A program made the position numbers and the translations under genes. 62,439 nucleotides of DNA from Candidatus Heimdallarchaeota archaeon. GTDB lineage: Archaea > Asgardarchaeota > Heimdallarchaeia > Heimdallarchaeales > Heimdallarchaeaceae. This document shows, piece by piece, positions 5,901-50,943 of the stretch. Below the pieces are notes generated by a model. That model had not been told where the DNA came from and ran no database searches. It saw nothing but the letters and a program-made list of their open reading frames with translations. Every line of letters begins with the position of its first letter. The first letter of the stretch is position 1. Location: contig JAUWJS010000002.1 of assembly GCA_030607575.1 (NCBI GenBank), forward strand, positions 1 to 62,439. The letters are read 5' to 3'.

Positions 5901-6107
5901 AAATTGGGAATTGGTTACTTCTACTTCAGTAGTCATTAAGGTTTGTAAAGATAGTAAGATTCCTTGCATCATGCTGGAATCTTTAGCAAGACCCCCTATT
6001 GTGGCAAAACTTATACCAGCATCGCTTCCTGCTGAAATCCATAAATCATAGGGAAAGTGTTTAGACATAAACCTCACATATTGTACGTTGTAACTAAACG
6101 TTCTCAA
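2922..6107 (-). CDS. Large orphan protein (1061 aa) with longin/roadblock-like N-terminal domain and long helical body
   Basis: Uninterrupted 1061-codon ORF. Residues ~15-160 (LWISAGSDAGISFATIGGL..MMQGILLSLQTLMTTEV..YVKFGTFTLAEEADNVVVQYVVKS..EEQLVQELALSFCKF) follow the beta-beta-alpha-beta-beta-beta-alpha pattern of longin/roadblock domains. No catalytic motif recognised. Met14 (MSKHF) is an alternative start. Confidence 0.6.
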   Translation of the reverse strand: MRTFSYNVQYVRFMSKHFPYDLWISAGSDAGISFATIGGLAKDSSMMQGILLSLQTLMTTEVEVTNSQFMTGENEYVKFGTFTLAEEADNVVVQYVVKSNQPGKISKIEEQLVQELALSFCKFIVLTPNFHQNMAIGKMISPDFVSKAFLKACTIAKQKLSISSNNRGLNELINKNIKILETDEIKFPTVAQLKDLRTWLGEDENSWDKGAIVPFKRQLLVQMVAQDILNQIIIKDPFVLVEYERPRFVIEEIRNSIERNLKSKDIKPQELIDRYLAKNLKKKVVTQLKKLTIDEIHSASSFIAHNLAKEIVYALAKDEPLCSLIDYRDVNLFSSIQNQITIAAEVPNPGSMICDALIEDVSPLALQSARMFYTQLIKPFIGKKLPPSIWNAIIDFTFSILGEKKLSSIKSKGSKGKVTSISVKRALIKERLSKLTVLQPKWLKQLSDKFITMGVGKQLELSNIEESVLFASALERAIITTLEKIIKDQLFNASLGDIFSFMVNSFRQIAPKTVFVSILSKIMDDLKGRGYETQKQMNLSSTDLIGAAIDEGEIKVFVNSVPVQLKRSFFKGTKLRFDGRTISSTELLQKQNVTINLANTIIPLRAAEQDAEFLTTCLINTRVLKRAYSKAILRGMISTYLQKMFHFEGEVYHQLDTLITVFNREMAGKLTPAHRLPDIQNGFPSFPIIHDIPQRFRGKNFHERCQESWNIYAPKIYRILQELLNGFSNLRRNDLNYKKKAMRLYSKSLKELKYIRRMLIKNWNPLNDQMTKMVESWSKDVSVNLSSHLSEVGRKASKWIGDVFKIQKLEYGKLTISEKQSLKEIIDTVNRINPQEIAELPKNFMEIAISILLYRRIPEYVIDDSYNQMISGEKRVADSVLQAWSKSRSRMEFENNLYLNMRVLGNTFTKMIDTYGRLTSTLFIKNDLELSSDINGYYIVLGDFPKEVFSTRAEVMDILKFPNVSVISLPKDWEIRLYLEPDYKREMDEYRDRLIVMSDIVGFVARMKFDENTGPVLEGMKAVISYLIENGETNIIDLSETIKEALFRLSEYPTAIVEDKQ

Positions 6108-9177: not shown

Positions 9178-11106
9178 TTATTTGACTATGTTACTTGTAA
9201 GCTGAGTTTGGTAAAGGTCTCGATATTTTCCTTTTTTCTTTAATAATTCTTTATGAGAACCAATTTCAACAATTTTTCCATCATCTATGACTACTATTTG
9301 AGAGGCTGTTTTTATTGTAGATAATCTATGAGCAATAATTATAGAAGTTCTTTCACGTAACATAAGATTAATTCCTTTCTGAATTAGAGATTCAGTAATA
9401 GGATCGACAGAACTGCTACATTCATCTAAGATTAGAATACTTGGGTTTGCTATGACAGCTCGAGCAAGTGATATAAGTTGTCTTTGACCTAAAGATAACC
9501 TAGACCCTCCTTCTTTTACATCCGTATCATACCCCTCTGGGAGTTTCAAGATATAATCATGCAATCCAAGCATTAAACATACATCATATATTTCATCATC
9601 AGTTGCATCCTTTCTCCCAAACTTTAGATTATCCTTTACTGATCCACTAAAAAGATAAACATCTTGAGGAACAACAGCTATATTTTTTCTTAATGTTTCT
9701 AAATCGATTTCCTTTATGTTTATTCCATCAATACTAAGTTCTCCTTTTGTCACATCATAATAGCGTGATAATAGTTTCGTAATTGTTGTCTTACCAGCAC
9801 CCGTTTGACCAACCAAAGCTATACTTTTCCCAGGTTCTATGGTTAAATTAATATTTTTAAGAACAGGAACCTTTGGTTGATATCTGAAATGCACGGATTT
9901 TAGCTCAATAAGTCCTTTAATTTTCTTAGGGAAGAAAGGCTTTGCTGAATTCTTCACGGAAGGATCTTCGTCTAATATTTCAAATACTCTTTCAGCACTG
10001 GCAAATCCTGATTGTATGACCGTGTAGAAGGTAAAAAGACTAATTACTGGCATGAAGAATCTATTCGAGTATTCTAAAAATGCATACAGCTTTCCATAAG
10101 TAAGAGTACCAAGCGAAATAACTGAATATCCTCCGAAGATGATCACAATGGTACTCCCCAAAGCAGCTATTAGTTGTATGATCGGCATGAATAAGGAGGA
10201 AACCCCTGCAGCTTGAACATTTGCTGAATAATTTTCCTTATTTAGATTCTTAAAATTTTGAATGTTCTTTTCCTCTCTAGAAAGAGCTTTAGTTACTTTT
10301 ACTCCTGAGATTGTTTCCTGTAAATTTGCAGTAATTTGAGCAATTGCGACTCTAGTTCTTCTGTATGCTGATCTTACGCGTTTCTGGAAGAAGAATGCTA
10401 TCATAATTAGGATTGGGATTACAGTAATTGTCAAAAGAGTCATATTCACATCAAGAATGAACATCAGGACGAGAATCCAGACTAAACTAATGAAATCTGC
10501 AAAAATGTCTATGATACCTGTCGTCAATAACTCTCCTAAGGAATCTACATCATTCGTTAGTTTGGAAATTGTTCGACCAGATTCTGTCTCAGTAAAATAA
10601 TCAAAAGAAAGATATTGCAGTTTGGTAAATAAATCATTTCGAATACGATAAATCATCTTTTGTCCAAGCTTAGCAAAGAAGATTGTTCTTACTAATATCA
10701 AGATGAAATTCACAACTATGAACAATAGATACATGGCTCCCATGATTAAAAGAGAATTAGTTATCTCATTCTTAGATAGGGGGATCATAAAACTGATGCT
10801 TTTTGTTAATATTCCAATATTAGAACCATTGTAATTTGAAACATATGTGTTTCGGAAACCAGATAATATTAATTCCAAAGAACTAACATCGGTATAGGGT
10901 TTAATGAAGTAATCGATAATTTGCATCATTAGAATAGGGATAGTAGTAGTGAATAGCGAAAACACAACCACGATAGCTAGAACAGAAATTGCTTCTGATT
11001 TATAATAGCTAAAAACACTCAGAATTTTCTTAAACAAAGTCCAATCGGAATATTTTTTGTCTCGTTTTTCTTCTTCTCTCGCCATGTAGCGCATTATATG
11101 ACCCAT
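9178..11106 (-). CDS. ABC exporter, fused permease/ATPase (MsbA/MdlB-type half transporter)
   Basis: 642 aa. N-terminal six-TM domain, then Walker A GQTGAGKTT, signature LSLGQRQ and Walker B ILILDE. Confidence 0.8.
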   Translation of the reverse strand: MGHIMRYMAREEEKRDKKYSDWTLFKKILSVFSYYKSEAISVLAIVVVFSLFTTTIPILMMQIIDYFIKPYTDVSSLELILSGFRNTYVSNYNGSNIGILTKSISFMIPLSKNEITNSLLIMGAMYLLFIVVNFILILVRTIFFAKLGQKMIYRIRNDLFTKLQYLSFDYFTETESGRTISKLTNDVDSLGELLTTGIIDIFADFISLVWILVLMFILDVNMTLLTITVIPILIMIAFFFQKRVRSAYRRTRVAIAQITANLQETISGVKVTKALSREEKNIQNFKNLNKENYSANVQAAGVSSLFMPIIQLIAALGSTIVIIFGGYSVISLGTLTYGKLYAFLEYSNRFFMPVISLFTFYTVIQSGFASAERVFEILDEDPSVKNSAKPFFPKKIKGLIELKSVHFRYQPKVPVLKNINLTIEPGKSIALVGQTGAGKTTITKLLSRYYDVTKGELSIDGINIKEIDLETLRKNIAVVPQDVYLFSGSVKDNLKFGRKDATDDEIYDVCLMLGLHDYILKLPEGYDTDVKEGGSRLSLGQRQLISLARAVIANPSILILDECSSSVDPITESLIQKGINLMLRERTSIIIAHRLSTIKTASQIVVIDDGKIVEIGSHKELLKKKGKYRDLYQTQLTSNIVK

Positions 11107-12929
11107 TAATCATTACCCCCTTGAATCATGTCTTTTTGACTATGTTGATCAATTTCACCATAACTCTGTTCAAGGGTTTGGTAAATTTCTTGATAAAGTC
11201 CTTTTGAATTTATTAGTTCAGAATGTGAACCATCTTGAACAATCTTTCCTGCATCGAAAACCAAAATCCTATCTGCATAATGAACTGATGAAATTCTATG
11301 AGAAATAATAATCGTTGTTCTCCCTTTACTTAAAATGTTCAAGGCTTCTTGTATTTGAGCTTCAGTTTCAGCATCTACTGATGCCGTAGAATCATCAAAG
11401 ATAAGAATTGAGGGGTCAGTTAGAAGGGTTCTAGCAATTGAAAGTCTTTGTTTTTGACCTCCGGATAGTGTAATTCCACGATCACCAACTTTAGTATCAT
11501 AAGCGTCAGGTAATCCAGATATGAACTCATGTATTTTTGCTATTTTGCTTACCTCTATAATCTCTACATCTTCAGAATCAGGTTTTCCAAAAGCAATGTT
11601 TTCTTTGATAGTTGCGTTGAAGAGATATGTTTCCTGAAGAACCAAACCTATTTGCTTTCTCATTTTCTTTAATTTATATTGTTTGATGTTTTTACGATCA
11701 ATTAATATTTCCCCTTTAATGGGGTCATAAAATCGAGATAATAAGTTAACAAAGCTACTCTTACCACTTCCAGTACCACCTAAAATTACTATTTTTTGAC
11801 CAGCAGGTATTGAAATATTAATTCCATCTAGGATTAATCTTCCTTCTTCATATTCAAAACTTACACTCTGATAGGCTATCTCGCCCATGAACTTTGGCGG
11901 ATCTATAGCATTTGGATCTTCCTGTACTTCTCGTTTAGCTTCAATTAATTCAATAATCCTATCCCCACTAGCTAAAGCTCTTTGAAGAATCCCTACTAAC
12001 CAAGTGAGTTGTCTTGTTGGTCCAGGTAGAAGAGCGAGATATGATAAAAATGCAATGAAATCCCCTAACATAAGCTCTTGTCTGGTAACTGCTATCCCTC
12101 CAATTGCAACTACTAGAGTTGCCCCAAACCCTATTAATAATGTCATTGTTGAAAAATAAATTGCACGATAAATTTGTGTTTTAATTCTTAAATCTCTGTA
12201 AATAACATTAGATTCATCAAATTTAGCGATTTCAGATTCTTCTTGAGCAAAACCTCTTACGACGTGAGCACCTGTGACATTTTCCTGTAGTATTGATGTT
12301 ACGTCTCCAAATTGTCTTCTAGCCTGGTAGAAAAGAGGTCTAACTTTAGTACTAAACCAGTGAACTAACCATATGAAACCTGGAAACAATGCAACTTGAA
12401 TCAACCCTAGTTTCCAGCTCATGACTAGCATTGCAGCATAAGCACCAATAAAGAAAACTAAGCCATTCATTACTAATCTCAAAGTAAAACTAATCAAACT
12501 TTGAATTGCATTAAGATCTGTTGTGACTCTTGTCATTATCTGACCAGTATTCTCATCATCGTAAAATTCTAAACTCAGCTGTTGAAGAATTTCGTAGATA
12601 TCATTTCGGAGTTCAAAGATTACCTGTTGAGCATATTTAGCCGCATAGAATCGTGAGAAGTAAGTCATAATCCCACCAAAAATAGCAACGCCTAATAAAC
12701 TTAAGCCAATTGTCCAGACAAGATTAATCTTTTCATTGGGAATAGCATTATTGATTAATTCCCTAACAAGTAAGGGTGAAATTAAACCTATAATTGATGC
12801 GACAAACGAAACAACAGTAATAAGCATTAGAAATTTCTTTCTGTGTGAAATATATGGCCAGATAATCTTGAAGATTTCTTTAATAGAATGAGTTCTTTTT
12901 CGTTTTTCTAGCCATGACATCTGGTTCAA
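11106..12929 (-). CDS. ABC exporter, fused permease/ATPase (heterodimer partner)
   Basis: 607 aa. Walker A GGTGSGKSS, signature LSGGQKQR, Walker B ILIFDD. A TAATG 1-nt stop/start overlap with the downstream paralogue implies a heterodimeric pair. Confidence 0.8.
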   Translation of the reverse strand: MNQMSWLEKRKRTHSIKEIFKIIWPYISHRKKFLMLITVVSFVASIIGLISPLLVRELINNAIPNEKINLVWTIGLSLLGVAIFGGIMTYFSRFYAAKYAQQVIFELRNDIYEILQQLSLEFYDDENTGQIMTRVTTDLNAIQSLISFTLRLVMNGLVFFIGAYAAMLVMSWKLGLIQVALFPGFIWLVHWFSTKVRPLFYQARRQFGDVTSILQENVTGAHVVRGFAQEESEIAKFDESNVIYRDLRIKTQIYRAIYFSTMTLLIGFGATLVVAIGGIAVTRQELMLGDFIAFLSYLALLPGPTRQLTWLVGILQRALASGDRIIELIEAKREVQEDPNAIDPPKFMGEIAYQSVSFEYEEGRLILDGINISIPAGQKIVILGGTGSGKSSFVNLLSRFYDPIKGEILIDRKNIKQYKLKKMRKQIGLVLQETYLFNATIKENIAFGKPDSEDVEIIEVSKIAKIHEFISGLPDAYDTKVGDRGITLSGGQKQRLSIARTLLTDPSILIFDDSTASVDAETEAQIQEALNILSKGRTTIIISHRISSVHYADRILVFDAGKIVQDGSHSELINSKGLYQEIYQTLEQSYGEIDQHSQKDMIQGGND

Positions 12930-13002
12930 GTTTTCGTTTTAACGATATAAGAATTATGTTATCACATGAAGAAATGCTATTATTCACTTTGGATAAAAAC
13001 AG

Positions 13003-13010
13003 TTATAAAT
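13003..13010 (+). promoter_or_regulatory. Candidate TATA box (TTATAAAT) for the 13056-19135 operon
   Basis: TTATAAAT lies 46 nt upstream of the TTG start at 13056. A GGTGGAG Shine-Dalgarno-like element sits at 13044-13050. The same octamer lies upstream of mcm. Confidence 0.3.
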
Positions 13011-13055
13011 GTCGTTTGAACTATTCTCGTAGAATATGTTTTTGGTGGAGATAGA

Positions 13056-13925
13056 TTGAAAAATAGTAAACTAATATGTTTGACGATAATCCTTACATTC
13101 ATCATAGCTCCTGCAACAAGTAATCAAGTGACTACTATAAAAGGAGAATTTGAATTCACTGAAACATGGGACTACAAGGGGATAATTACCAGACAAAATC
13201 GCCGTGTTAGATATACCCCTATTTATGGAATTAATCCAGATATGTTAAGAACATTCATCTATTTCTTAGATGATGCCAATGATAATGATACAGCTATAGA
13301 TACTATTGTTGCATTGCATGGAATAAATCCACTACGTAATGCACCACATCACTCCCTAATATTTGAATCAACAAGTTTAGGTGCAGAATATGGATTCAAC
13401 GTAAGTTCTGAAGCAGGTATGGAATGGGTTGATGTCGAATATGATTCAGATATAGTTAATGCTAGTTCAAGTTCTTTTGACCCAGCAATAAAAGATATTT
13501 ATGATGTTGTTACAGCATCATCAAAATATTCATTACCAGAATTATATGATAATATTACTTTTCCCACTTATCTTGTTTTTCCAGTTCATATTGCCAATTT
13601 CGTCACCCAAACTGGTATAGTAGGGCATTGGAGACAAATAAATAAAGATCAGACTGTTATTAATGGTAATTTTACCACCTTTGGCGCAGATAACCCAATC
13701 TTTACTGGACCTGTGAATGAGACAGATCCGACAGATATTGCTTATCCTGAAAATCAATGGTGGCCACAATTTAATGTCACTATTGCTCAAAATGTAGAAA
13801 GAACTTCTCTTCCTCGAACACATAGCTTCCAGGTTAACTTTCCATTCACAACAATTGTTGCATCTTTGGCACTTGCTCTTGTGATATTTACATTTGTTAA
13901 GAAAAGTAGGAGGAAAACAAGATGA
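13056..13925 (+). CDS. Secreted/surface glycoprotein paralogue 1 (signal peptide, C-terminal TM anchor)
   Basis: 289 aa. Has an N-terminal hydrophobic signal (LICLTIILTFIIAPATS), 7 N-x-S/T sequons, and a C-terminal TM plus basic tail (IVASLALALVIFTFVKKSRRKTR). TTG start is preceded by GGTGGAG. Confidence 0.6.
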   Translation: MKNSKLICLTIILTFIIAPATSNQVTTIKGEFEFTETWDYKGIITRQNRRVRYTPIYGINPDMLRTFIYFLDDANDNDTAIDTIVALHGINPLRNAPHHSLIFESTSLGAEYGFNVSSEAGMEWVDVEYDSDIVNASSSSFDPAIKDIYDVVTASSKYSLPELYDNITFPTYLVFPVHIANFVTQTGIVGHWRQINKDQTVINGNFTTFGADNPIFTGPVNETDPTDIAYPENQWWPQFNVTIAQNVERTSLPRTHSFQVNFPFTTIVASLALALVIFTFVKKSRRKTR

Positions 13926-14692
13926 GAAAAATAACTCTATTCATAGTAACTCTAATGGTTACCTCTTTATTCATGTTATCATTCAACAATTCAATCAACG
14001 TTACTGCCCAAGAAACTGAAGATGAGGATTGGGATTTTACAGGTACAATGAGAATTACTAGTGATCAAAAGAGAATTCAAGTCTTTGATCCAGTAGCACA
14101 TGGATATAATGAGACATATGGTGATTTTACAACACCTTTGCTCTATATGGATGTAATAGGTTATGATACGGGTGAAGATGGAGAAATGGATATATATTAT
14201 GGATTTTATGGCACCTCTAGTCTGTTCGATTTGGCCCATATCAACTATACAACTATGAGTAATTTATTGGTAGTGAAAGTGTTTGCAAAATGGAGTTTAA
14301 GGATACCCGAAAGTTCACCTTTGGTTTGGGAAGTTCTCTATTATCCGGATCCGTTTTACGATGCTATTGCTAGTAATTTGTATCATAAAATACCAATTTA
14401 CTATGTAAATCTTACAAAAGCTGAAGGTGTTAATCTTCAGTTCAAAATTGAACTAGGGTTGAATTATACATTAGGTAATTTTACTACCTGGGGGGCAAAT
14501 AATCCAATCGTTCCATCTATGCCTACGTTTCCTGGGTATAATGTTTCTGTTCCAGTGTTTACAGCAAATTTACCTATTAGAGAAATTCAAGCCTCGCCTT
14601 TCTTCTCAGATCCACTAACTTATGTGACAATTGTAACAATGTTTTTCTTCTTGAGTTATTATGTTAAGAAGAGGGGAAAAAGAACGGGATAG
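13922..14692 (+). CDS. Secreted/surface glycoprotein paralogue 2
   Basis: 256 aa. ATGA stop/start overlap with the previous gene, and AGGAGG lies 8 nt upstream. Has a signal peptide, 8 N-x-S/T sequons and a C-terminal TM plus KKRGKRTG tail. Shares DWDFTG/TWDYKG and GNFTTWGANNPI/GNFTTFGADNPI with paralogue 1. Confidence 0.6.
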   Translation: MRKITLFIVTLMVTSLFMLSFNNSINVTAQETEDEDWDFTGTMRITSDQKRIQVFDPVAHGYNETYGDFTTPLLYMDVIGYDTGEDGEMDIYYGFYGTSSLFDLAHINYTTMSNLLVVKVFAKWSLRIPESSPLVWEVLYYPDPFYDAIASNLYHKIPIYYVNLTKAEGVNLQFKIELGLNYTLGNFTTWGANNPIVPSMPTFPGYNVSVPVFTANLPIREIQASPFFSDPLTYVTIVTMFFFLSYYVKKRGKRTG

Positions 14693-14755
14693 TAGAACAG
14701 TTTTTGATTCCCAAACATTTTTATCTTTCTTTCTATTACATCTTTATGAATTGGG

Positions 14756-15436
14756 TTGATTGGATTATCATACATTGCTTCAATATTGTTAGTCTCAATT
14801 TTTAGCTTAACACTAGCAATTTTCATAGTTATTCCAAATATCTTCAAAATTAAACAATATATTTGGCTAAGCGTGAAAATATCACTCATAGTAATTTGTG
14901 CTATTCTGGTTATCTCATTCGTTGAGACAAAAATAGACGCTTATTACTTTCTAGGAAGCTTTTTTGGTGTTGGATTTCTGATTAAAGGAATATTGATGTC
15001 TAATAGATTAAGCTTTGTTGTATTTCTAGTAAGTTTTATGTCCTTTTCGTTTGTATTTTTGTCTATTGGCAATGTAATTATGTTTGTTTTCAGTCTCTGT
15101 TTCTCCTATCTCTTCATATTTGGCATAACTGCCTTTAATTTGTATGACTCAAAAGCTAAAGAAACAATTTTGGAAGATATTAAAGGATTTCAAACTATAA
15201 GTTTTATAACTTTACTTGCTTTCCCAGTGATTACTGTATACATACTTTATTTCTTATCAGAGAATCAAGTAATATGGATAGAGAAAACATCTTTCTTCGA
15301 TTTGTTCAACAAGAACAGTGATGCAATTACTTTCCTGATTGTAGGAATTATCTTTTTGTTAACAATAACATTTGTGTTTGTTTTAGATTTACATGCTCAA
15401 GATAAGAAAAGGATGGATGAACCATGGTATTCTTAA
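14756..15436 (+). CDS. Polytopic membrane protein, unknown function (occupies the NuoJ position but is not recognisably NuoJ)
   Basis: 226 aa, almost entirely hydrophobic with about 6-7 TM segments. The TTG start is uncertain. Confidence 0.45.
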   Translation: MIGLSYIASILLVSIFSLTLAIFIVIPNIFKIKQYIWLSVKISLIVICAILVISFVETKIDAYYFLGSFFGVGFLIKGILMSNRLSFVVFLVSFMSFSFVFLSIGNVIMFVFSLCFSYLFIFGITAFNLYDSKAKETILEDIKGFQTISFITLLAFPVITVYILYFLSENQVIWIEKTSFFDLFNKNSDAITFLIVGIIFLLTITFVFVLDLHAQDKKRMDEPWYS

Positions 15437-15696
15437 GTTATCTAATTGCCCTGAGTCTCATTTGCTTCTGTTTAGGCTTGCTATTATTAATGTTCTCAAA
15501 ATCAAAAATTCAAATAAATATGAGTTTTATCTTTCTCTTTTTATCAGGTATTTTTCTTATATCTAGCTCGATTATTAGTACTGATATTGTTTTATTCTTC
15601 TTATTAGGCTTAGTTTCAATTACTATACTCTTGGCTTTTCATTTCAGAGATCAGTTATTATCAAATAATCATGTAGAAGAGGAGGGAGGAAATTGA
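15424..15696 (+). CDS. NuoK/MrpC-like small 3-TM membrane protein (degenerate)
   Basis: 90 aa with 3 TM segments. SLICFCLGLLLLMFSKSKIQ..MSFIFLFLSG aligns by eye with NuoK ILFVLGLTGLVIRRNLL..LIGLEIMINA. The two conserved membrane glutamates appear replaced (F, I/T). Confidence 0.45.
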   Translation: MVFLSYLIALSLICFCLGLLLLMFSKSKIQINMSFIFLFLSGIFLISSSIISTDIVLFFLLGLVSITILLAFHFRDQLLSNNHVEEEGGN

Positions 15697-17639
15697 ATAC
15701 CATAACTGTCTTACTAATTGCTCAAGTTTCAATTTTGATCGGTTTACCTGTATTTAGACGTCTATTAGTGTTTTCAGATAACGATAAGATTAGGGTAAGA
15801 AAAATTTATTCAAGTATTGTGTCTCTTTCTTTGGCTGGATTCTCTATTATTATATTTGCACTTACCATACATTATCTAAACGTAAATGATCTTTCAACCC
15901 TAACAGAGGAAATAACCTTATTTTCCATATCTGGATATAATTTTGCTCTCGGATTTCAATTAACTCAAATTCAAGTTCTTCTGTTTGTAGGCATTACTTC
16001 TGCTGTAGCTTTGATAAATTTCTATTTGGTATGGAGTCAGGAGAAATGGACTATTGATCAAGTAGATAGAATCTCTATTTACTCGGTGGTTTCTATTCTA
16101 GTTATCTTATCTCCAAACTTCTTTCAATTACTGTTCTTCTTAATTGTGGCTGATTTAGTCCTAATTGAATTGTTTTACAGTTTGAATCAAGAAGAAAGTA
16201 AGCAGAAGAACTTGAAGATAATGACTGCTTCATTGGGTGTTGGAGATTTCCTGATTTGTATGGCATTCATACTTCTTTTCAGAAGATCAAAAAGCTTTGA
16301 TTTTGACATTATTTTGAGTGATATTCAGTACAAATTTTTCATTTTTAAACCATATTTTATTGTTCTTTGTTGCTTGTTTCTTCTAGGTATATTAGCAAAA
16401 AGTTCTTTGTTCCCATTTCACAGCTGGCTACCTAATATTTGTTCTAAAGAATCTACCTGGAAATTTAGTCCTATAATGGTCAATATTATTCTTGGAATAT
16501 CACTCATCTTCATTTCCCCAATATACAACTTACTTGTAGTTGTGCCAAATTATTATGCTTGGTATGGTATAATATTTTCTGTAATTGCAACATTTTTCGC
16601 CATATTTCTGACAAAGGAATTTGAAAAACAGATTCTCGTTTTCACTTCTTCTGTAGGTTTGTTATTAGTTTCAATTGGAATTGGAAACCTGGCTAGTGCT
16701 TTTCAGTTTTTGATGATGTTGCCTTTTGCTTTTCTGGGCCTTGTGATTCTTTCATCAAAATCTATAAACATACACCTAGATCCTCCTACTGATCAAATAA
16801 GTAAAAAAATCATCAGATCAATAGCTAATGTTATCTTTGTTACAATTGTTATGATCTCAATAATTTCAGTAATTCCTTTTAGCAGTAGTTTACTTACTTT
16901 GGGTTATCTATTCACTTCTAATATTATAGATTTGAGTCTTCTTGTTTACATTTTAACCATTAGTTTAATTTTGGGCATAACTTTAATCTGTATTCAAATA
17001 AGTTTGAAATATTTCAAACAAAATCTCTTCATGAAACTAAGATTTTCAGAGTTGTTTCCACTTATAATGATTCTAGTTTTCTTATCAGCAATTAGTGTTC
17101 TCTATCCTTTTTATAACATTTTAAATCCATTTTCATTACCTCTTAATTTCTCCCAGGAAAGCCTTTTCATTGCTCTTATCCCAATTTTTGTAGGATGGTT
17201 TGTTATCCTTGTTTCATACATTGTTATTGAGTTATTTGCTGAAAAATTCTTAATATATCTCAAAAAATTTTCAACTAAGATTCAGGAACAATTGAGTAAA
17301 ATATACTATTTCGAATTTATTTTCTCACCTATTAATTGGGTAATTGTTCAAATCATAATTCCTTCAGCAATCTGGTTTTATGTAAATGTGATTAGAGGTT
17401 TTATTTACAAGGTTATAATAGTCAGTATCTTCAAATTTTTCTTCTATCTAGCAAACCTCGTTAAGGATTTTGTAACTAATGTTGCAGTTCCACGTACTGT
17501 AAATTTCTTTAAGAGAAGCTCTCAGTTTATTCAAAGCTTGGAAAGTGCTAAACTAAAAACTCAGCTACTTTATATAATCCTAGGACTTGGGATAATGTTT
17601 GCTATTACAATTATTCTTTATGCTGGAGGTATAATCTGA
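15693..17639 (+). CDS. NuoL/MrpA-like antiporter-type membrane subunit (divergent)
   Basis: 648 aa. LGILAKSSLFPFHSWLPN matches the GAxGKSAQxPLHxWLP core of PF00361-type subunits. FALGFQLTQIQVLLFVGITSAVALINFY matches the N-terminal NuoL pattern. The C-terminus (YYFEFIFSPINW ... LESAKLKTQLLYIILGLG) resembles the NuoL lateral helix plus final TM. TTG start is preceded by GAGGAGGGAGGA. Confidence 0.6.
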   Translation: MNTITVLLIAQVSILIGLPVFRRLLVFSDNDKIRVRKIYSSIVSLSLAGFSIIIFALTIHYLNVNDLSTLTEEITLFSISGYNFALGFQLTQIQVLLFVGITSAVALINFYLVWSQEKWTIDQVDRISIYSVVSILVILSPNFFQLLFFLIVADLVLIELFYSLNQEESKQKNLKIMTASLGVGDFLICMAFILLFRRSKSFDFDIILSDIQYKFFIFKPYFIVLCCLFLLGILAKSSLFPFHSWLPNICSKESTWKFSPIMVNIILGISLIFISPIYNLLVVVPNYYAWYGIIFSVIATFFAIFLTKEFEKQILVFTSSVGLLLVSIGIGNLASAFQFLMMLPFAFLGLVILSSKSINIHLDPPTDQISKKIIRSIANVIFVTIVMISIISVIPFSSSLLTLGYLFTSNIIDLSLLVYILTISLILGITLICIQISLKYFKQNLFMKLRFSELFPLIMILVFLSAISVLYPFYNILNPFSLPLNFSQESLFIALIPIFVGWFVILVSYIVIELFAEKFLIYLKKFSTKIQEQLSKIYYFEFIFSPINWVIVQIIIPSAIWFYVNVIRGFIYKVIIVSIFKFFFYLANLVKDFVTNVAVPRTVNFFKRSSQFIQSLESAKLKTQLLYIILGLGIMFAITIILYAGGII

Positions 17640-19135
17640 TGAGTTATCCACTTTCATTCTTGTACGATTTCCTACCTCTTGAAATTCTTCTACTGGGAAT
17701 CATCTTAATTATCGGTTTGGGGTCATTCTCTTCTAAGATTATCAAAAAATTCCCGTTTCTTATGACAAGGATGAGAATTGTTTATGGTTATATTGCTCTT
17801 ATTTCAAGTATTATTGCAGTTATAGTGTATAGCTACATATATACACCAATAGATAGTACTTATGTAATTGCATTTAATTTGACCATAACAGCTTTTACTT
17901 CAGGACTATTTTATGCTGTTTCATTTGCTATCATTATTGGGATTTTCTTATCTATTGTTGAAATAGAGTTGAAATTTAGGAAAAGCTATATGCTTTTTGT
18001 CTCTTTGCTTTTAATAGAATCCAGTACTATATTCATTACTGCTGCAAATTCATTGGTGTTCGTTTTCTTTGGTTTTGTATTGGTTTTTACTGGAATGAAT
18101 TTCTTTATAAGAAACTTTACATCAACAATGCCCGATAAAAAGAAATCTTTCATCGGGAACTATCTAACTTTGAGTAGTTTAGCTCTATCTTTATTGTTTA
18201 TAGGTTTTGCAGCTCATTCCCTTTCAGGAAATTCCTTTCTATTGTCAATAGAAAACACCACATTACGTCTTTGGGAGTTCATAAGCGAGATATTCATAGT
18301 ATCTGGATTATTAGTTCTAGTTGGAGGTCCTCCTTTCCACTTTATCTTTTTTGAATCGGAGAATGAGAAATTTAATGCAATAACACAGATAATTCTTTCA
18401 GTTCAGAAAGGTTTGACCTTAGCTTTCTTAATTAAATATACTTTAACTATTGCAGAATCATCATTTTCAGTAGTTTTGATTTGGTTATTCACGGTTTGTG
18501 GGGTTGTCTATGTTCTTTGGGGAGTATTGGCTTCCATGACAGTAAAAAGATTACAGAAATTAGTACACTATATCAGCATCATATTTGTGGGGATAATACT
18601 TCTTATTTTATCCGATTTATTTTCTCCCATCCTCACAGAAGAATTGATAAATCTAACATTGAAGACTGCATTTTATGGAGTACTGGCATTTATTCTTTCG
18701 TTAACATTTTCTATATCCTCAATAGGTGTAATTTCAAAGGGTTTCAAATCAGATGAAATACAAATTTTAAGAGAAGTTGGAAGAAATTCTATTTCTCAAT
18801 TCCTTATACTGGTACTTAATGTACTATTAATGTTTGCTGCACCTTCATCAATACTTCTCGTCTCTCAGAAAATTGTTTTTCCTGATTTCTTCTCGCCAAG
18901 AATGTATGCTACAGCTGTGATTCTTCTTTTAGGCGTGGTTTTTTCATTAGTCTATCTTATTAGGTTGCTAAGATCTATCTTCTTTATTCCAATTCAGAGA
19001 AGTCAAGAGTTCTCTTCACCTGAACCAGCAGTGTTTATAGGCTCTTTTATTGCTCTGATTCTTATAGTTGCTGTGGTGATTTTTATAAAACAATTCTTAG
19101 TTTTCTGCAGTTTGATTTGGATAAACCTAGTTTAG
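17639..19135 (+). CDS. NuoN/MrpD-like antiporter-type membrane subunit (highly degenerate)
   Basis: 498 aa polytopic protein. GGPPFHFIFFES corresponds to the (K)xxxxPFHxWxPD core, but the preceding Lys and following acidic/Pro residues are lost. ATGA overlap with the upstream gene, and GGAGGT lies 8 nt upstream. Confidence 0.45.
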   Translation: MSYPLSFLYDFLPLEILLLGIILIIGLGSFSSKIIKKFPFLMTRMRIVYGYIALISSIIAVIVYSYIYTPIDSTYVIAFNLTITAFTSGLFYAVSFAIIIGIFLSIVEIELKFRKSYMLFVSLLLIESSTIFITAANSLVFVFFGFVLVFTGMNFFIRNFTSTMPDKKKSFIGNYLTLSSLALSLLFIGFAAHSLSGNSFLLSIENTTLRLWEFISEIFIVSGLLVLVGGPPFHFIFFESENEKFNAITQIILSVQKGLTLAFLIKYTLTIAESSFSVVLIWLFTVCGVVYVLWGVLASMTVKRLQKLVHYISIIFVGIILLILSDLFSPILTEELINLTLKTAFYGVLAFILSLTFSISSIGVISKGFKSDEIQILREVGRNSISQFLILVLNVLLMFAAPSSILLVSQKIVFPDFFSPRMYATAVILLLGVVFSLVYLIRLLRSIFFIPIQRSQEFSSPEPAVFIGSFIALILIVAVVIFIKQFLVFCSLIWINLV

Positions 19136-19159
19136 CAATTTCGACAATTCAATAAGTTT

Positions 19160-20164
19160 TTGAATATAGACACTCGAATTAACTTGATTGGAGTGACTTC
19201 TACTAAGCTGAATCTTCCATTAGAGGTAGATCAAATAAATTCTTACCTATCTGATTTAAGAAATCATAGTCCATTTGATGATGAAATCAATGATTTAATT
19301 GATCAAATTCTTCAAAATGGCGGTAAAAGGATTAGACCTCTAATCTGCCTTCTTTCATTTGAGATGATATCAAATGAACAGCGCAATGATACGAGTTTAG
19401 CTGCAGCTTGTTCTCTAGAAGTTATTCATAATGCATCACTGTTAATTGATGATATTTTCGATAAAGATATTTTTCGAAGAAAAGAAAAATCTTTCTACTT
19501 AAAATATTCCACTTTCGCAGCACTTTCAATTTCTTATTCCCTAAGTAGTTTAGCATTAAGCTTAGCTTCTAAAACTAACGTTATTGAAATAGTTGATGAG
19601 TTAATTAAGGCAATTCATATACTATCAACTTCATTATTTTTAGAGCAAAAATTCCGGTCTGGAAAGAATAAGATGACTCAAGAGGAAGCGCTTCAGCTAA
19701 TTGATAGAAAAACTTCAAGTTTATTTGAAGCAGCCTCTGTTATTGGCGTTCTTCTAGGAAATAGCTCAAAAAAGGATAGAGAATCTATGAAGCTCTTTGG
19801 GAAATTATTTGGAAGGGCATTTCAATTGAAAGATGATTATTTCTCTTTGACTTCTGAGCAGAATGATTTGGGAAAATCAGGTGTTTGGACTGATATCTCG
19901 AACCGTATTCAAACCTATATAGTTTTAGAAGCAATGGATCTGGTCTCTCCTGATGAGAAGGAAATTTTAAATGACTATTATATTGATAAGAAAGACTTTC
20001 CAACTGAAAAAATTAAATCTATACTTGTAAATTCTGGAGCTCTTGAAATAGTAAAGAATCAAATATCTCAGTATATCAGTGAAGCAATTGCGATTCTTAA
20101 TATGTTTTCTAAAAGTCCTTCAAGAGATAAATTAATCGAAATAACAAATCTTTTACACATTTAA
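19160..20164 (+). CDS. trans-Polyprenyl diphosphate synthase family protein with atypical second Asp-rich motif
   Basis: 334 aa. GGKRIRP; first Asp-rich motif EVIHNASLLIDDIFD; second motif reads FQLKDDYFS (DDxxS rather than DDxxD) followed by LGKSG. TTG start, no in-frame ATG nearby. Confidence 0.7.
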   Translation: MNIDTRINLIGVTSTKLNLPLEVDQINSYLSDLRNHSPFDDEINDLIDQILQNGGKRIRPLICLLSFEMISNEQRNDTSLAAACSLEVIHNASLLIDDIFDKDIFRRKEKSFYLKYSTFAALSISYSLSSLALSLASKTNVIEIVDELIKAIHILSTSLFLEQKFRSGKNKMTQEEALQLIDRKTSSLFEAASVIGVLLGNSSKKDRESMKLFGKLFGRAFQLKDDYFSLTSEQNDLGKSGVWTDISNRIQTYIVLEAMDLVSPDEKEILNDYYIDKKDFPTEKIKSILVNSGALEIVKNQISQYISEAIAILNMFSKSPSRDKLIEITNLLHI

Positions 20165-20179: not shown

Positions 20180-21259
20180 CTATTCAGATCTAATTCCTTG
20201 TATATACTCACTAAACCAGATATGTGCTGTGTATCTATCTGTTGTAACAGGCGGAGCTTTGAACCCATAAGCACAGATTGAACTTATTGGACCACTTCCT
20301 GCTCGATTAATAGCTACTTTTGTTGCTCTTATTACATCTACAAGGGTTCCCGCAGCATTAGGACCATCTAAAGTTTCTAATCTAATATCTATTTTAACTG
20401 GCATCTCCATGAATCCTTCTCCTAGTATCCAGAAATGACCCACGCGCCTATTTCCTAAGAATTCCAAATAATCTGAAGTCCCACTTGCAAGATTAATATC
20501 ATTGCCAAAAGATTGTTTAATGCTCCTTTCTTTTACTTCACGTTTGTATTGTTTTCTATCATCATCAAGTGTATTCAGCGTATCAAGCCCCCCAGCAACA
20601 TCTAGTTGATAAGTGTCTTTTATAATAACCCCTTGTTCCCTTAAAACATCTAGAAACCCTTTATGAAGAACAGTTCCTCCAGCTAAGGATTGTAAATCAT
20701 CACCTAGAACACATACATTTGCTTTTTTGAATTTTCTTGCCCAACTAGGGTTGTTAGCAATACTAGTAGGTGTACAATTTATGAATGCTACTTCTGCATC
20801 AAGAGCTGCTTGAGCATATGTTTCAACGGCATTTTCTGCACCTGAAGGAAGAGCACAAATAAGAATCTCAGATTCTGAATCCTTTAATATTTCAACAACA
20901 TTTGCTTCAGAACCCTCTGCTACCTTTATGACTTCAAGCAGATGATTTGAAAGACCATCCTTCAAAGGTCCTTTATGAACTTTAACATTGGTCTTTTCAA
21001 CTTTCACAAATTGGGGAGTACTATTGATTGGTGCAAATATAGCCTCTTCTAAATCTTTTCCGACCTTATCAGTATCAACATCAAAAGCAGCAACAATTCG
21101 AATATTCTTAGCTTCATAACTACTGATTTTCGGATAAAGAAGTTTTTCCTTTTTATCTTCAAAGATATTAAGATAATTAATGCCTTGAAGTAAACCTGAA
21201 GCAATATTCCCGATACCGGCGATTGCTATTTTTATAACGTCATTTTTCACCATTAACAC
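20180..21259 (-). CDS. Inositol-3-phosphate synthase-like paralogue (divergent)
   Basis: 359 aa, collinear with the upstream ino1 (IAIAGIGNIASGLLQG, LGDDLQSLAGGTVLH, GPNAAGTLVDVIR). Substitutions fall at positions conserved in the canonical copy (GDDIKSQ -> GDDLQSL; NIGGNTDF -> DVAGGLDT). Confidence 0.6.
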   Translation of the reverse strand: MLMVKNDVIKIAIAGIGNIASGLLQGINYLNIFEDKKEKLLYPKISSYEAKNIRIVAAFDVDTDKVGKDLEEAIFAPINSTPQFVKVEKTNVKVHKGPLKDGLSNHLLEVIKVAEGSEANVVEILKDSESEILICALPSGAENAVETYAQAALDAEVAFINCTPTSIANNPSWARKFKKANVCVLGDDLQSLAGGTVLHKGFLDVLREQGVIIKDTYQLDVAGGLDTLNTLDDDRKQYKREVKERSIKQSFGNDINLASGTSDYLEFLGNRRVGHFWILGEGFMEMPVKIDIRLETLDGPNAAGTLVDVIRATKVAINRAGSGPISSICAYGFKAPPVTTDRYTAHIWFSEYIQGIRSE

Positions 21260-21260
21260 C

Positions 21261-22367
21261 TCAGTTAGTTATTTCTCCTCTTATGAATTTTTCAACGAGT
21301 TCTTTAGCTTCTGAATCTCTTATTTGTTCAGGAGGATGCTTAAAGAAGTAACTAGAAACTCCTATTAGAGGACCACCAATATTTCTATCTAATGCAATTT
21401 TCAAAGATCTTATTACATCGATCATAACACCAGCACTATTAGGTGAATCTTGCACACTCAATTTTAGCTGAGCTGTAATAGGTTGTTCCCCAAAGTTCCT
21501 ACCTTTTAACCAAAGATAACATATTTTTTCATCATCTAGAAAGGGAACATAATCAGAAGGGCCAATTCTAGTAGGAACTTCATAAGGTAACATGCTTGTA
21601 ACAGCTTCAGTTTTTGAAATTCTCTTTGTAGTTAGTCTGTATTCCTTTTTCATGTTTTCGAAATCTGTATTTCCACCAATATTCAGTTGAAAAGTTTCAT
21701 CCAGCTTTATTCCTCTATCATGAGCTAGTGAAACAAGAACACGATGTAATATTGTTGCACCAAGCTGAGATTTTATATCATCTCCTGCAACAGGTATATT
21801 CTTATCAGTGAATTTTTGACCCCATTCAGGTTTTGAAGCTATAAATGCTGGAATTCCATTTGCAAAAGCTACGTTTGTATCTAATGCAGCTTGTGCATAA
21901 ACTTTTGATGCTTCTTCACTTCCTACAGGAAGGAAGTTGACTAACACATCTGCATTAGATTCTTTTAAAGTATCTACAATATTTACAGGTTGCATTTCTG
22001 AGGGATCATAACAGTGAAATGATTCCATCATATGTGGAGCAACTCCATCATTAATAGGACCAGGTTTAACAGTAATTCCCTTATGAGGGACATCTGAAAA
22101 CTTATTACAGACATTAGGACTTTGCCAGATAGCCTCAGATATATCTTTACCAATCTTCTTAGTGTTAACCTCAAAAGCAGCTACTACTTCAACATCTGAA
22201 ATATGATACTCACCAAACCTAACATGCATAATCCCGGGTACGAAATCGTTCTCATCAGCATTTTGGTAATATTCTAAACCTTGTACCAGAGCTGATGCAC
22301 AGTTACCAAGACCAGCAATTGCTACTTTAACTTTTTTCGACATGAGTTCACCCTTTTCTTCAAACAC
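21261..22367 (-). CDS. ino1: myo-Inositol-3-phosphate synthase
   Basis: 368 aa. VAIAGLGNCASALVQGLEYY, GIMHVRFGEYH, YLPVGSEEASKVYAQAALD, GDDIKSQLGATILHRVL, ISKTEAVTS and DSPNSAGVMIDVIR closely parallel bacterial/archaeal Ino1 such as the mycobacterial enzyme. Confidence 0.85.
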   Translation of the reverse strand: MFEEKGELMSKKVKVAIAGLGNCASALVQGLEYYQNADENDFVPGIMHVRFGEYHISDVEVVAAFEVNTKKIGKDISEAIWQSPNVCNKFSDVPHKGITVKPGPINDGVAPHMMESFHCYDPSEMQPVNIVDTLKESNADVLVNFLPVGSEEASKVYAQAALDTNVAFANGIPAFIASKPEWGQKFTDKNIPVAGDDIKSQLGATILHRVLVSLAHDRGIKLDETFQLNIGGNTDFENMKKEYRLTTKRISKTEAVTSMLPYEVPTRIGPSDYVPFLDDEKICYLWLKGRNFGEQPITAQLKLSVQDSPNSAGVMIDVIRSLKIALDRNIGGPLIGVSSYFFKHPPEQIRDSEAKELVEKFIRGEITN

Positions 22368-50906: not shown

Positions 50907-50943
50907 TAGTACTCTTAATTAAATCCTTTTAAATCATCTTACT

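What the first reader, a model, noticed from the sequence alone, without database searches (positions are those of the whole stretch)
13056..19135. Orphan complex-I/Mrp-like membrane module with apparently dead proton-channel residues, co-operonic with two secreted glycoproteins
Six plus-strand genes are translationally coupled: ATGA overlaps at 13922 and 17639, 13-nt and 4-nt overlaps at 15424 and 15693, and AGGAGG/GGAGG boxes 7-8 nt before internal starts.

The last three resemble NuoK (90 aa, 3 TM), NuoL/MrpA (648 aa) and NuoN/MrpD (498 aa). The NuoL-like protein has LGILAKSSLFPFHSWLPN plus a C-terminal lateral-helix-like LESAKLKTQLLYIILGLG. The NuoN-like protein has GGPPFHFIFFES.

By-eye alignment suggests the residues that define ion translocation are largely replaced:
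- both NuoK glutamates are gone;
- the TM5 Glu of the WEG/LEL motif reads Val in both large subunits;
- the TM7 Lys is missing in the NuoN-like protein but kept in the NuoL-like one;
- the AMxGPTPVSAL segment after the PFHxWLP core is unrecognisable.

No NuoH/A, Q-module, hydrogenase or MrpE/F/G genes are adjacent. Instead the operon opens with two paralogous, heavily sequon-decorated extracellular proteins and an unassignable 226-aa polytopic protein. A membrane arm without a redox or antiporter partner, wired to surface proteins, is not a described architecture. It could be a scaffold, a sensor, or a novel conformationally coupled surface machine.
Basis: partly seen in the sequence, partly recalled or inferred. 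Interest (0 to 1): 0.78.

Follow-up and report, generated by a model that had tools for sequence, protein, structure and literature searches.

The report
Orphan, degenerate complex-I membrane arm
A small group of Heimdall (Asgard) archaea carries a conserved, unannotated gene cluster for a stripped-down, heavily mutated copy of the membrane half of respiratory complex I, sitting next to two surface glycoproteins of unknown fold. It probably no longer pumps protons in the usual way, and what it does instead is open.

Summary
The six ORFs are real, under purifying selection, and conserved in order in every related locus examined. All of these come from Heimdallarchaeota MAGs, apart from one short contig labelled Thorarchaeota.

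**Homology**
- Family profiles place the 648-aa protein in the NuoL/ND5/NdhF class (E 2e-21).
- They place the 498-aa protein in the NuoN/ND2 class (E 8e-16).
- The 90-aa and 226-aa proteins are probably NuoK- and NuoJ-like, from gene order, topology and best-but-non-significant matches.
- Some relatives carry an extra NuoM-like gene, which gives the nuoJKLMN order.

**Charged residues: "dead" is only partly right**
- Lost: both NuoK glutamates, the NuoN TM5-Glu/TM7-Lys pair, and the NuoL TM12 Lys-Asp exit.
- Kept: in the L-like protein, a TM5 acid shifted by one helical turn plus the TM7 Lys/Arg; in the N-like protein, the TM8 Lys/Arg.

**Context**
- No NuoH/A, Q-module, hydrogenase or MrpEFG gene lies in the 62-kb window.
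- The two paralogous type-I glycoproteins have no known fold.
- A conserved promoter-like spacer separates them from the Nuo-like genes, so "six coupled genes" is overstated.
- The surrounding ~20 kb is syntenic in every locus long enough to show it, so the link between the glycoproteins and the Nuo-like genes stays unproven.

**Verdict:** a new variant of a known kind, function unknown.

The parts
13003..13013 (+). TATA-box-like promoter element TTATAAATGTC, about 50 nt upstream of the first gene. An SD-like GGTGGAG lies at 13044-13050.
   Evidence: Sequence read. TTTATAAATGTC is invariant in all 8 aligned orthologous upstream regions, including the most divergent locus. SD-like box seen.
13056..13925 (+). 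S1: 289-aa type-I membrane glycoprotein candidate with signal peptide, beta-rich ectodomain, C-terminal TM helix and basic tail.
   Evidence: ORF. No Pfam or NCBIfam hit. AF2 pLDDT 80 with helix 3-21, beta-rich core and helix 262-288. No fold match in PDB or BFVD. 7 sequons, enriched and conserved. dN/dS about 0.3.
13922..14692 (+). S2: 256-aa paralogue of S1, coupled to it by an ATGA overlap.
   Evidence: Reciprocal phmmer hits between the S1 and S2 families. 8 sequons, with NLT163 and NFT186 conserved 15/15. S1/S2 occur as adjacent pairs across Heimdallarchaeota.
14710..14725 (+). Conserved BRE/TATA-like element (CCCAAAC-ATTTTTATC) in the 63-nt S2-J spacer; probable internal promoter for J-K-L-N.
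   Evidence: Spacer of 55-64 nt in all loci. The element is conserved in 9 of 10 aligned loci. The J start lacks an SD box, unlike the other internal starts. The promoter function is inferred, not shown.
14756..15436 (+). J-like: 226-aa polytopic protein with 7 predicted helices; probable NuoJ/ND6 counterpart with two extra N-terminal helices.
   Evidence: It sits immediately before the K-like gene, as in nuoJKLMN. AF2 pLDDT 71. The top Foldseek PDB hit is E. coli NuoJ 7p63_J (E 0.92, prob 0.69), with three other NuoJ/NdhG chains (four entries) in the top 25. hhalign J 63-177 against NuoJ 5-119 gives p 0.18. No PF00499 hit. Assignment inconclusive.
15424..15696 (+). K-like: 90-aa, 3-TM protein; probable NuoK/ND4L counterpart lacking both membrane glutamates.
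   Evidence: The top PDB hit of the family profile is NdhE/ND4L 6hum_E (E 0.16). Collinear faint PF00420 hits in 3 of 5 orthologues. hhalign register 4-42 against 4-42, p 0.066. The only family-wide conserved charged residue is D76, after TM3.
15693..17639 (+). L-like: 648-aa NuoL/ND5/NdhF-class antiporter-like subunit with a C-terminal extension and a last TM helix.
   Evidence: NCBIfam NdhF 2.3e-15 and NuoL 3e-6 over 14-641. PDB profile hits NdhF at 2.4e-21, all top hits are L/ND5 class, MrpA only 5e-3. Residue map. Only 132 hits at E<=1e-3 among 1.84 billion representatives.
17639..19135 (+). N-like: 498-aa NuoN/ND2-class antiporter-like subunit.
   Evidence: NCBIfam NuoN 2.6e-5, full length. 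Family HMM against E. coli NuoN 1e-12 and NuoM 6e-10. PDB profile hits plant Nad2 at 7.6e-16, with most top hits (the best 13) ND2/NuoN/NdhB class. Orthologues in L015 and L018 pass the PF00361 gathering score. Residue map.

Best explanation
The locus encodes a self-contained, lineage-specific membrane complex descended from the nuoJKLMN half of a complex-I-type operon.

**Shown**
- The L-like and N-like proteins are homologues of ND5/NuoL and ND2/NuoN. In some relatives an M-like protein is also present.
- The gene order is that of nuoJ-K-L-(M)-N.
- All genes are under purifying selection.
- The canonical charged residues are retained only in part.

**Inferred**
- The subunits assemble side by side as in the complex I membrane arm: J/K, then N, then (M), then L, strapped by the C-terminal extension and last helix of L.
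- The chain that receives the signal from the quinone site is gone. In complex I that chain is J-Glu55, K-Glu36, K-Glu72 and the N-Glu133/Lys217 pair.
- The proposed proton exit, L-Lys399/Asp400, is also gone.
- The complex therefore most likely no longer works as a redox-driven pump or a canonical antiporter.
- What survives is a short buried set of charges around the N-L boundary: N TM8 Lys/Arg, a variable N TM12 Lys, and L TM5 Asp with L TM7 Lys/Arg. These would act as inter-subunit salt bridges or as a pH- or voltage-responsive switch.
- The whole complex would serve as a membrane platform.

**More weakly inferred**
- The neighbouring S1-S2 glycoprotein pair forms a heterodimer on the outer face and is the partner of this platform.
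For: **Homology and subunit class**
- Searches place the L-like protein with ND5/NuoL (E 2e-21) and the N-like protein with ND2/NuoN (E 8e-16).
- One search places the M-like protein with the ND4/MrpD class.

**Gene order**
- The order is identical to a canonical nuoH-I-J-K-L-M-N operon.
- L018, L019 and L025 carry J-K-L-M-N.

**NuoJ and NuoK assignments (best available hits, not significant)**.

**Residue maps**. E. coli residue numbering was checked against PMC9271201 for the antiporter-like-subunit and NuoK residues and against PMC8357420 for the J-K-N carboxylate chain.
- L-like: E144 position is hydrophobic, but D/E at +3 is present in all 16 members.
- L-like: K229 -> K/R in all members.
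- L-like: H254, H338, K342, K399 and D400 are lost in all members. H334 becomes Q/H at the neighbouring position.
- N-like: E133 and K217 are lost in all members.
- N-like: H224 is kept and K247 -> K/R in all members. K395 is variable.
- K-like and J-like have no conserved acidic residue in any predicted TM segment.

**Selection**: dN/dS 0.12-0.42 for all six genes.

**Absence of partner genes**: no partner redox or Mrp genes in 62 kb.

**Distribution**: the six-gene order is present in every locus examined, all Heimdallarchaeota apart from one short contig labelled Thorarchaeota.

**S1/S2 as outward-facing glycoproteins**.
Against: - No structure of the L-like or N-like protein, or of the assembly, was predicted here. 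Assembly, the lateral helix and the positions of the retained charges rest on sequence alignment alone.
- The TM5 acid in L-like is shifted by only one helical turn and its TM7 Lys is intact, so an active half-channel is not excluded.
- Non-canonical residues could rebuild an ion path.
- The J and K assignments are statistically non-significant.
- S1-S2 seem to have their own promoter and J-K-L-N another.
- The S1/S2 membrane anchors are less conserved than their ectodomains (0.41 against 0.52-0.60 mean pairwise identity).
- The surrounding ~20 kb is syntenic in every locus long enough to show it, so the physical link between S1/S2 and the module is unproven.
- The rest of the genome could not be searched for a partner nuo or hydrogenase cluster.
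Confidence: 0.45

Rival explanations
1. It is an active, highly divergent Mrp-like secondary cation/proton antiporter or ion channel. It uses a non-canonical ion path through the retained L-like TM5 Asp/TM7 Lys and N-like TM8 Lys/Arg (plus the TM12 Lys where present). S1/S2 are accessory or unrelated.
For: - Stand-alone antiporter modules built from NuoL/N/K/J-like parts exist in Mrp (established knowledge).
- Family-wide conservation of D154, K236, H243 and N142/Q145 in the L-like protein, and of K/R257, H234 and Q256 in the N-like protein.
- Purifying selection on all six genes.
- E. coli complex I still pumps with an altered distal residue, E407K in NuoM (PMC9271201). The residue set is therefore not absolutely rigid.
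Against: - No MrpE/F/G genes are present.
- The best matches are to complex I classes; MrpA scores only 5e-3.
- No single subunit keeps both a TM7/TM8 lysine and a TM12 lysine or glutamate across the family.
- Both NuoK-type glutamates are absent.
Confidence: 0.2
2. It is the separately encoded distal part of the membrane arm of the organism's own complex-I-like or group-4 [NiFe]-hydrogenase enzyme. The peripheral and proximal genes (nuoA/B/C/D/H/I) lie elsewhere in the genome.
For: [quoted passage not shown]
- The L-like and N-like proteins match specifically the ND5 and ND2 classes.
- The gene order is that of nuoJKLMN.
Against: - The residues that would transmit the signal from a Q or hydrogenase module are all missing: K-Glu36/72 and the N-Glu133/Lys217 pair.
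- The proteins are so divergent that Pfam fails on all six window proteins.
- Only 132 of 1.84 billion representatives match the L-like profile at E<=1e-3.
- No nuoH/A lies nearby, although J and K normally pack against H and A.
Confidence: 0.15
3. The adjacency of the glycoprotein pair and the Nuo-like genes is only inherited synteny. S1-S2 and J-K-L-N are two unrelated transcription units with unrelated functions.
For: - A conserved promoter-like element lies in the S2-J spacer, and the J start has no SD box.
- A similar element precedes the next gene, polyprenyl synthase.
- The whole neighbourhood is conserved in every locus long enough to show it: 1047-1061-aa ORF, DUF211, POR, two ABC exporters, polyprenyl synthase and two inositol-1-phosphate synthases.
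- The S1/S2 anchors evolve like generic anchors.
Against: - Both gene sets have the same narrow distribution, Heimdallarchaeota apart from one short contig labelled Thorarchaeota, and were found together in every locus examined.
- They share the same strand, always with a 55-64-nt spacer.
- No locus has one set without the other.
Confidence: 0.35

Closest known systems
Membrane arm of respiratory complex I (NuoJ/K/L/M/N = ND6/ND4L/ND5/ND4/ND2)
   Same: - The gene order is J-K-L-(M)-N.
- The L-like protein is closest to ND5/NuoL/NdhF.
- The N-like protein is closest to ND2/NuoN/NdhB.
- Both large subunits carry the PFH motif at the TM7-TM8 junction.
- The L-like TM7 Lys and the N-like TM8 Lys are kept.
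- The L-like protein is collinear with the NuoL model almost to its end, including a C-terminal extension and a last TM helix.
   Different: - No NuoH, NuoA or Q/N-module genes are nearby.
- The E-channel carboxylates and the NuoN TM5/TM7 ion pair are lost.
- The NuoL TM11 His/Lys and the TM12 Lys-Asp are lost.
- The GPTPVSAL segment is unrecognisable.
- The J-like protein has two extra helices.
- Divergence is so high that Pfam models miss all six window proteins.
- The window's lineage lacks the M subunit.
- The cluster sits next to two surface glycoprotein genes.
Mrp (Mnh/Sha/Pha) multisubunit cation/proton antiporter
   Same: A stand-alone membrane complex without a redox module, built from NuoL-like, NuoN/M-like, NuoK-like and NuoJ-like parts.
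   Different: - No MrpE, F or G.
- The J-like part is not fused to the L-like subunit as it is in MrpA.
- Sequence affinity is to complex I classes (MrpA E 5e-3 against NdhF 2e-21).
- The canonical lysines and glutamates are incomplete.
Heimdallarchaeial complex-I-like / group 4 [NiFe]-hydrogenase complexes and MBH/MBS
   Same: Same organisms, and the same superfamily of membrane subunits. The M-like protein of relatives best matches the MBS and NdhD/MrpD classes.
   Different: Those clusters carry NuoB/C/D/I(H) catalytic subunits. This one has none within 62 kb, and its coupling residues are degenerate.
NDH-1MS (NdhD3/NdhF3/CupA/CupS) and DAB (DabB/DabA) CO2-hydration systems
   Same: A precedent for antiporter-like subunits paired with a non-redox soluble partner.
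   Different: - No CupA or DabA (PF10070) homologue is present.
- The candidate partners here face outward and are glycosylated.
- They carry no conserved Cys or His that could bind a metal.

Membership tests
Antiporter-like subunits of complex I/Mrp (PF00361, NuoL/M/N, MrpA/D) | Significant similarity to the family profile over the 14-TM core | tested here: met
   The window proteins miss Pfam PF00361. However:
- The L-like protein hits NCBIfam NdhF at 2.3e-15, and its family profile hits NdhF at 2.4e-21.
- The N-like family profile hits Nad2 at 7.6e-16 and E. coli NuoN at 1e-12.
- Orthologues in L015 and L018 score 47-51 bits against the PF00361 gathering score of 21.5.
Antiporter-like subunits of complex I/Mrp (PF00361, NuoL/M/N, MrpA/D) | Complete set of conserved charged residues: TM5 Glu, TM7 Lys, TM8 Lys/His, TM12 Lys/Glu | tested here: not met
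   - L-like: TM5 acid shifted by +3, TM7 K/R kept, TM8/TM11/TM12 residues lost.
- N-like: TM5 Glu and TM7 Lys lost, TM8 K/R kept, TM12 variable.
- M-like of relatives: TM5 Glu kept, TM7 and TM8 Lys lost.
NuoL/ND5 class | C-terminal extension with a long lateral helix and a terminal anchor helix (TM16) | tested here: inconclusive
   - The NCBIfam NuoL model aligns 14-641 to 7-611 of 615.
- A linker of about 105 residues (518-622) has amphipathic stretches, followed by a hydrophobic last helix at 623-648.
NuoK/ND4L (PF00420) | About 100 aa, 3 TM helices, sequence similarity to the family | tested here: inconclusive
   - 90 aa with 3 hydrophobic segments.
- The top PDB hit of the family profile is NdhE, but at E 0.16.
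- PF00420 hits at E 1.8-4.5 in 3 of 5 orthologues.
- hhalign p 0.066.
NuoK/ND4L (PF00420) | Membrane-embedded glutamates (E. coli E36 and E72) | tested here: not met
   Position 36 reads Ile/Leu in the collinear alignment. No conserved acidic residue lies in any TM segment of the family.
NuoJ/ND6 (PF00499) | Sequence or fold similarity to NuoJ (5 TM, TM3 with conserved Tyr/Gly) | tested here: inconclusive
   - No PF00499 hit and no PDB sequence hit.
- The Foldseek top hit is NuoJ 7p63_J at E 0.92, with three other NuoJ/NdhG chains (four entries) in the top 25.
- hhalign p 0.18.
- An invariant Tyr118 lies one residue from the position aligned with NuoJ Tyr59.
Respiratory complex I / group 4 hydrogenase (whole enzyme) | NuoH and NuoA plus the Q-module (NuoB/C/D/I) encoded with the membrane subunits | tested here: not met
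   No such gene is present in the cluster, in the 62-kb window, or in the 10-kb flanks of related loci. The rest of the genome is not testable with these tools.
Mrp antiporter | MrpE, MrpF and MrpG subunits, and MrpA with a fused C-terminal domain plus MrpB | tested here: not met
   No Pfam or NCBIfam hit to Mrp/Mnh E/F/G or MrpB/MbhD/E in any cluster protein. The L-like profile hits MrpA only at 5e-3, behind 20 complex I chains.
DAB / NDH-1MS CO2-hydration modules | DabA (PF10070) or CupA partner next to the antiporter-like subunit | tested here: not met
   S1 and S2 have no Pfam or NCBIfam hits and no fold match. They have no conserved Cys or His.

The most novel reading that the evidence does not exclude
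A complex-I-derived membrane arm has been repurposed in Heimdallarchaeia as an energy- or gradient-coupled transducer. Its residual buried charge pair or axis would respond to the proton motive force and drive or gate an outward-facing S1-S2 glycoprotein heterodimer. This would be a new class of energised cell-surface machine, functionally analogous to Mot/Ton/Tol but built from antiporter-like subunits.
Probability: 0.12. Interest if true: 0.85.

Novelty: new variant of a known kind. Interest (0 to 1): 0.6.

Why it matters
- Antiporter-like subunits are the least understood part of complex I. This would be a natural complex that keeps the architecture but has lost the input chain and the proposed proton exit, while remaining under selection. 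It is a ready-made test of which charges are structural and which are catalytic.
- It occurs in Heimdallarchaeia, the archaeal group closest to eukaryotes, whose respiratory complexes are under active study. Automated annotation misses it: the window's proteins fail Pfam (some orthologues of the N-like protein do pass PF00361), and public records call the proteins hypothetical.
- It could affect inventories of complex I subunits in these genomes. It may explain, or be confused with, the reported 'short' membrane arms.
- If the surface glycoproteins are true partners, this would be a new way of using this ancient module.

Tried and rejected
- **Pfam on the six window proteins:** no hit. This would wrongly suggest no homology; deeper family profiles were needed.
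- **hhalign of shallow alignments against single E. coli subunits:** uninformative.
- **PDB profile search with the shallow 4-sequence N-like alignment:** no true hit. The 8-sequence alignment succeeded.
- **AF2 with sequences translated from fetched loci:** This cost a third homology search to obtain admissible J-like sequences.
- **S1 model against PDB and BFVD:** nothing below E 0.1, so no functional lead came from the fold.
- **J-like profile against PDB sequences:** nothing.
- **Literature searches for a description of this cluster:** none found.
- **Rejected idea: DAB/NDH-1MS-like CO2 hydration.** There is no DabA/CupA and no metal ligands.
- **Rejected idea: pseudogenised remnant.** dN/dS is 0.12-0.42 and the reading frames are intact in every locus examined.
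- **Rejected idea: Mrp membership.** MrpEFG are absent and the class affinity is to complex I.
- **Considered but untestable:** a role linked to the neighbouring polyprenyl synthase, inositol-phosphate synthases and ABC exporters. Each seems to have its own promoter, and all are simply syntenic.

Full report
**What is in the sequence**

I call them S1, S2, J-like, K-like, L-like and N-like.

| Name | Coordinates | Length |
|---|---|---|
| S1 | 13056-13925 | 289 aa |
| S2 | 13922-14692 | 256 aa |
| J-like | 14756-15436 | 226 aa |
| K-like | 15424-15696 | 90 aa |
| L-like | 15693-17639 | 648 aa |
| N-like | 17639-19135 | 498 aa |

The junctions are as follows:
- S1/S2: 4-nt ATGA overlap.
- S2/J: 63-nt gap.
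- J/K: 13-nt overlap.
- K/L: 4-nt overlap.
- N to the next gene, a polyprenyl synthase (PF00348, 4.6e-46): 24 nt.

AGGAGG/GGAGG boxes precede the S2, L and N starts. The J start has none.

**Transcription signals**

Three conserved promoter-like elements were found by aligning orthologous intergenic regions.
- An invariant TTTATAAATGTC lies about 50 nt upstream of S1 (window 13003-13013).
- A conserved CCCAAAC-TTTTTAT element sits inside the S2-J spacer (14710-14725).
- A similar CAATAA-TTTTT element follows the N-like stop.

The most economical reading is two adjacent units, S1-S2 and J-K-L-N. The polyprenyl synthase would be transcribed separately. This is inferred from conservation, not shown.

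**Organism and distribution**

The L-like protein has only six close relatives in a 5.8-billion-protein index. In a filter-free search of 1.84 billion representatives its profile finds about 16 family clusters. Beyond these it finds only weak matches to ordinary NuoL/M/N proteins, 132 hits in all at E<=1e-3.

Genome hits are all 'Candidatus Heimdallarchaeota' MAGs, including AB_125. The S1/S2 and J-like families are equally restricted. One short contig is labelled Thorarchaeota.

Every locus examined has the same six genes in the same order. Wherever the contig reaches far enough, the neighbours are the same too:
- a 1047-1061-aa ORF without Pfam hits;
- DUF211;
- 2-oxoacid:ferredoxin oxidoreductase subunits;
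- two divergently transcribed ABC exporters;
- polyprenyl synthase;
- two inositol-1-phosphate synthases;
- an epimerase.

Three loci (L018, L019, L025) carry one extra PF00361 gene between L-like and N-like. The order there is J-K-L-M-N. This is the same order as in a canonical nuoH-I-J-K-L-M-N operon fetched for comparison.

**Homology**

None of the six window proteins hits Pfam, so family profiles were needed.

- **L-like.** The single protein hits the NCBIfam NdhF model at 2.3e-15 and the NuoL model at 3e-6 over residues 14-641. An 8-sequence family profile hits cyanobacterial NdhF at 2.4e-21. The next 12 hits are all ND5/NuoL/NdhF chains. MrpA appears only at 5e-3.
- **N-like.** The family profile hits plant Nad2 at 7.6e-16 over its full length, followed by ND2/NuoN/NdhB chains. 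It hits E. coli NuoN at 1e-12 and NuoM at 6e-10. Orthologues in L015 and L018 pass the PF00361 gathering score.
- **M-like (relatives only).** It best matches MBS, NdhD and MrpD chains.
- **K-like.** The top PDB hit of the family profile, out of 177,635 sequences, is NdhE/ND4L, but at E 0.16. Faint collinear PF00420 hits recur in three orthologues. hhalign against two NuoK sequences gives p 0.066 in perfect register.
- **J-like.** There is no sequence hit. Its AF2 model (pLDDT 71) has E. coli NuoJ as the top Foldseek hit (E 0.92, probability 0.69). Three other NuoJ/NdhG chains (four entries) are among the top 25. hhalign places J-like helices 3-7 on NuoJ helices 1-5 (p 0.18).

The L and N assignments are secure. 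The K and J assignments are probable, and rest mainly on gene order, size and topology.

**Charged residues**

E. coli numbering was checked against PMC9271201 for the antiporter-like-subunit and NuoK residues and against PMC8357420 for the J-K-N carboxylate chain. Family HMM alignments give this map.

| Subunit | Lost | Kept or changed |
|---|---|---|
| L-like | H254, H338, K342, K399 and D400 lost in all members | E144 position is Ile/Leu/Val/Phe, but an Asp/Glu 3 residues later (D154) is present in all 16 members. K229 is K or R in all (K236). D178 is D in the window's clade and N in distant members. H334 is Q/H at the adjacent position. |
| N-like | E133 -> V/I/L in all. K217 -> L/S/Q in all | H224 kept in all (H234). 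K247 -> K/R in all (K257). H305 -> F/Y/H. K395 variable (Q410-K411 in the window) |
| M-like | TM7 Lys and TM8 Lys | TM5 Glu kept |
| K-like, J-like | No conserved acidic residue in any predicted membrane segment | (none) |

The pattern is coherent.
- The proximal chain is gone. In complex I this chain links the quinone site to the first antiporter: J-Glu55, K-Glu36, K-Glu72, N-Glu133 (PMC8357420).
- The proposed distal proton exit in NuoL (K399/D400; PMC9271201) is also gone.
- Charges near the N-(M)-L boundaries remain.

'Dead' is therefore an overstatement, but no subunit has a complete canonical path. All six genes are under purifying selection (dN/dS 0.12-0.42; the neighbouring polyprenyl synthase gives 0.11).

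**The two surface proteins**

- S1 and S2 are paralogues.
- Each has an N-terminal signal-peptide-like helix and a C-terminal hydrophobic helix followed by a Lys/Arg tail.
- Both are enriched in N-X-S/T sequons, several of them conserved.
- The AF2 model of S1 (70-sequence alignment, pLDDT 80, pTM 0.69) is a beta-rich domain.
- It has no match in PDB or BFVD.
- There are no conserved Cys or His residues, which argues against a metal or redox site.
- Their membrane anchors are less conserved than the ectodomains.

**Context**

The 62-kb window has no nuoA/B/C/D/H/I, hydrogenase, mbh or mrp genes. Where public records name any of these proteins, the name is 'hypothetical protein'. No paper describing this cluster was found.

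[quoted passage not shown] The idea that this module supplies the missing part therefore cannot be dismissed. Its own J- and K-like genes and the loss of every coupling residue argue against it.

**Interpretation**

The best reading (confidence about 0.45) is a self-standing, complex-I-derived membrane platform that has given up canonical proton pumping. Its retained boundary charges would be structural or would act as a switch. The S1-S2 pair would be a possible outward-facing partner.

The rivals are:
- an active non-canonical antiporter (0.2);
- the detached distal arm of a complex-I-like enzyme encoded elsewhere (0.15);
- S1-S2 merely syntenic and not a partner (0.35). This rival is orthogonal to the other two.

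The finding is real and unannotated. It is a new variant of a known kind, and its function remains open.

Noticed in passing
L018:8232-9713, L019:6188-7660, L025:13794-15272: Some relatives carry an additional, degenerate NuoM/ND4/MrpD-class gene between the L-like and N-like genes. This gives a nuoJKLMN-like order. The window's lineage has apparently lost it.
   Followed up: yes
window 19150-19162: A conserved CAATAA(G/C)TTTTT promoter-like element overlaps the mechanically called TTG start (19160) of the polyprenyl synthase. In other loci the start lies 30-45 nt downstream of this element. The true start in the window is probably about 19184-19193.
   Followed up: partly
window 53210-58798 (-): An MCM replicative helicase gene of 1862 aa. 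It is interrupted by several inteins: three Intein_splicing stretches, LAGLIDADG endonuclease domains and a Hint module.
   Followed up: no
window 30535-31302 (-): An EAP30/Vps36-family (ESCRT-II-like) protein, a eukaryotic signature protein typical of Asgard archaea.
   Followed up: no
window 2922-6107 (-): A 1061-aa ORF with no Pfam hit. It is conserved at 1047-1049 aa at the same position in every related locus that reaches it.
   Followed up: no
window 20180-22367 (-): Two tandem paralogous inositol-1-phosphate synthase genes lie directly after the polyprenyl synthase, with HMG-CoA reductase at 28200-29447. The inositol-1-phosphate synthase/polyprenyl synthase arrangement next to the cluster is conserved in every related locus that reaches it.
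   Followed up: partly
window 12930-12960: An invariant AACGAT(A/T)T(A/T)A element lies close to the start of the divergently transcribed ABC exporter pair (9178-12929, - strand). It is probably their promoter, sharing the 126-nt intergenic region with the S1 promoter.
   Followed up: partly
window 15400-15436: The J-like protein ends in a family-wide conserved KKRxDE(P)WYS tail. Its coding sequence overlaps the K-like start by 13 nt, so part of this conservation may come from dual coding.
   Followed up: no
window 45967-48616 (-) and 50334-53193 (-): A HerA-NurA pair, a GINS (Sld5-family) gene and a Hel308-like helicase lie next to the intein-rich MCM. Together they form a replication and repair gene neighbourhood.
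   Followed up: no
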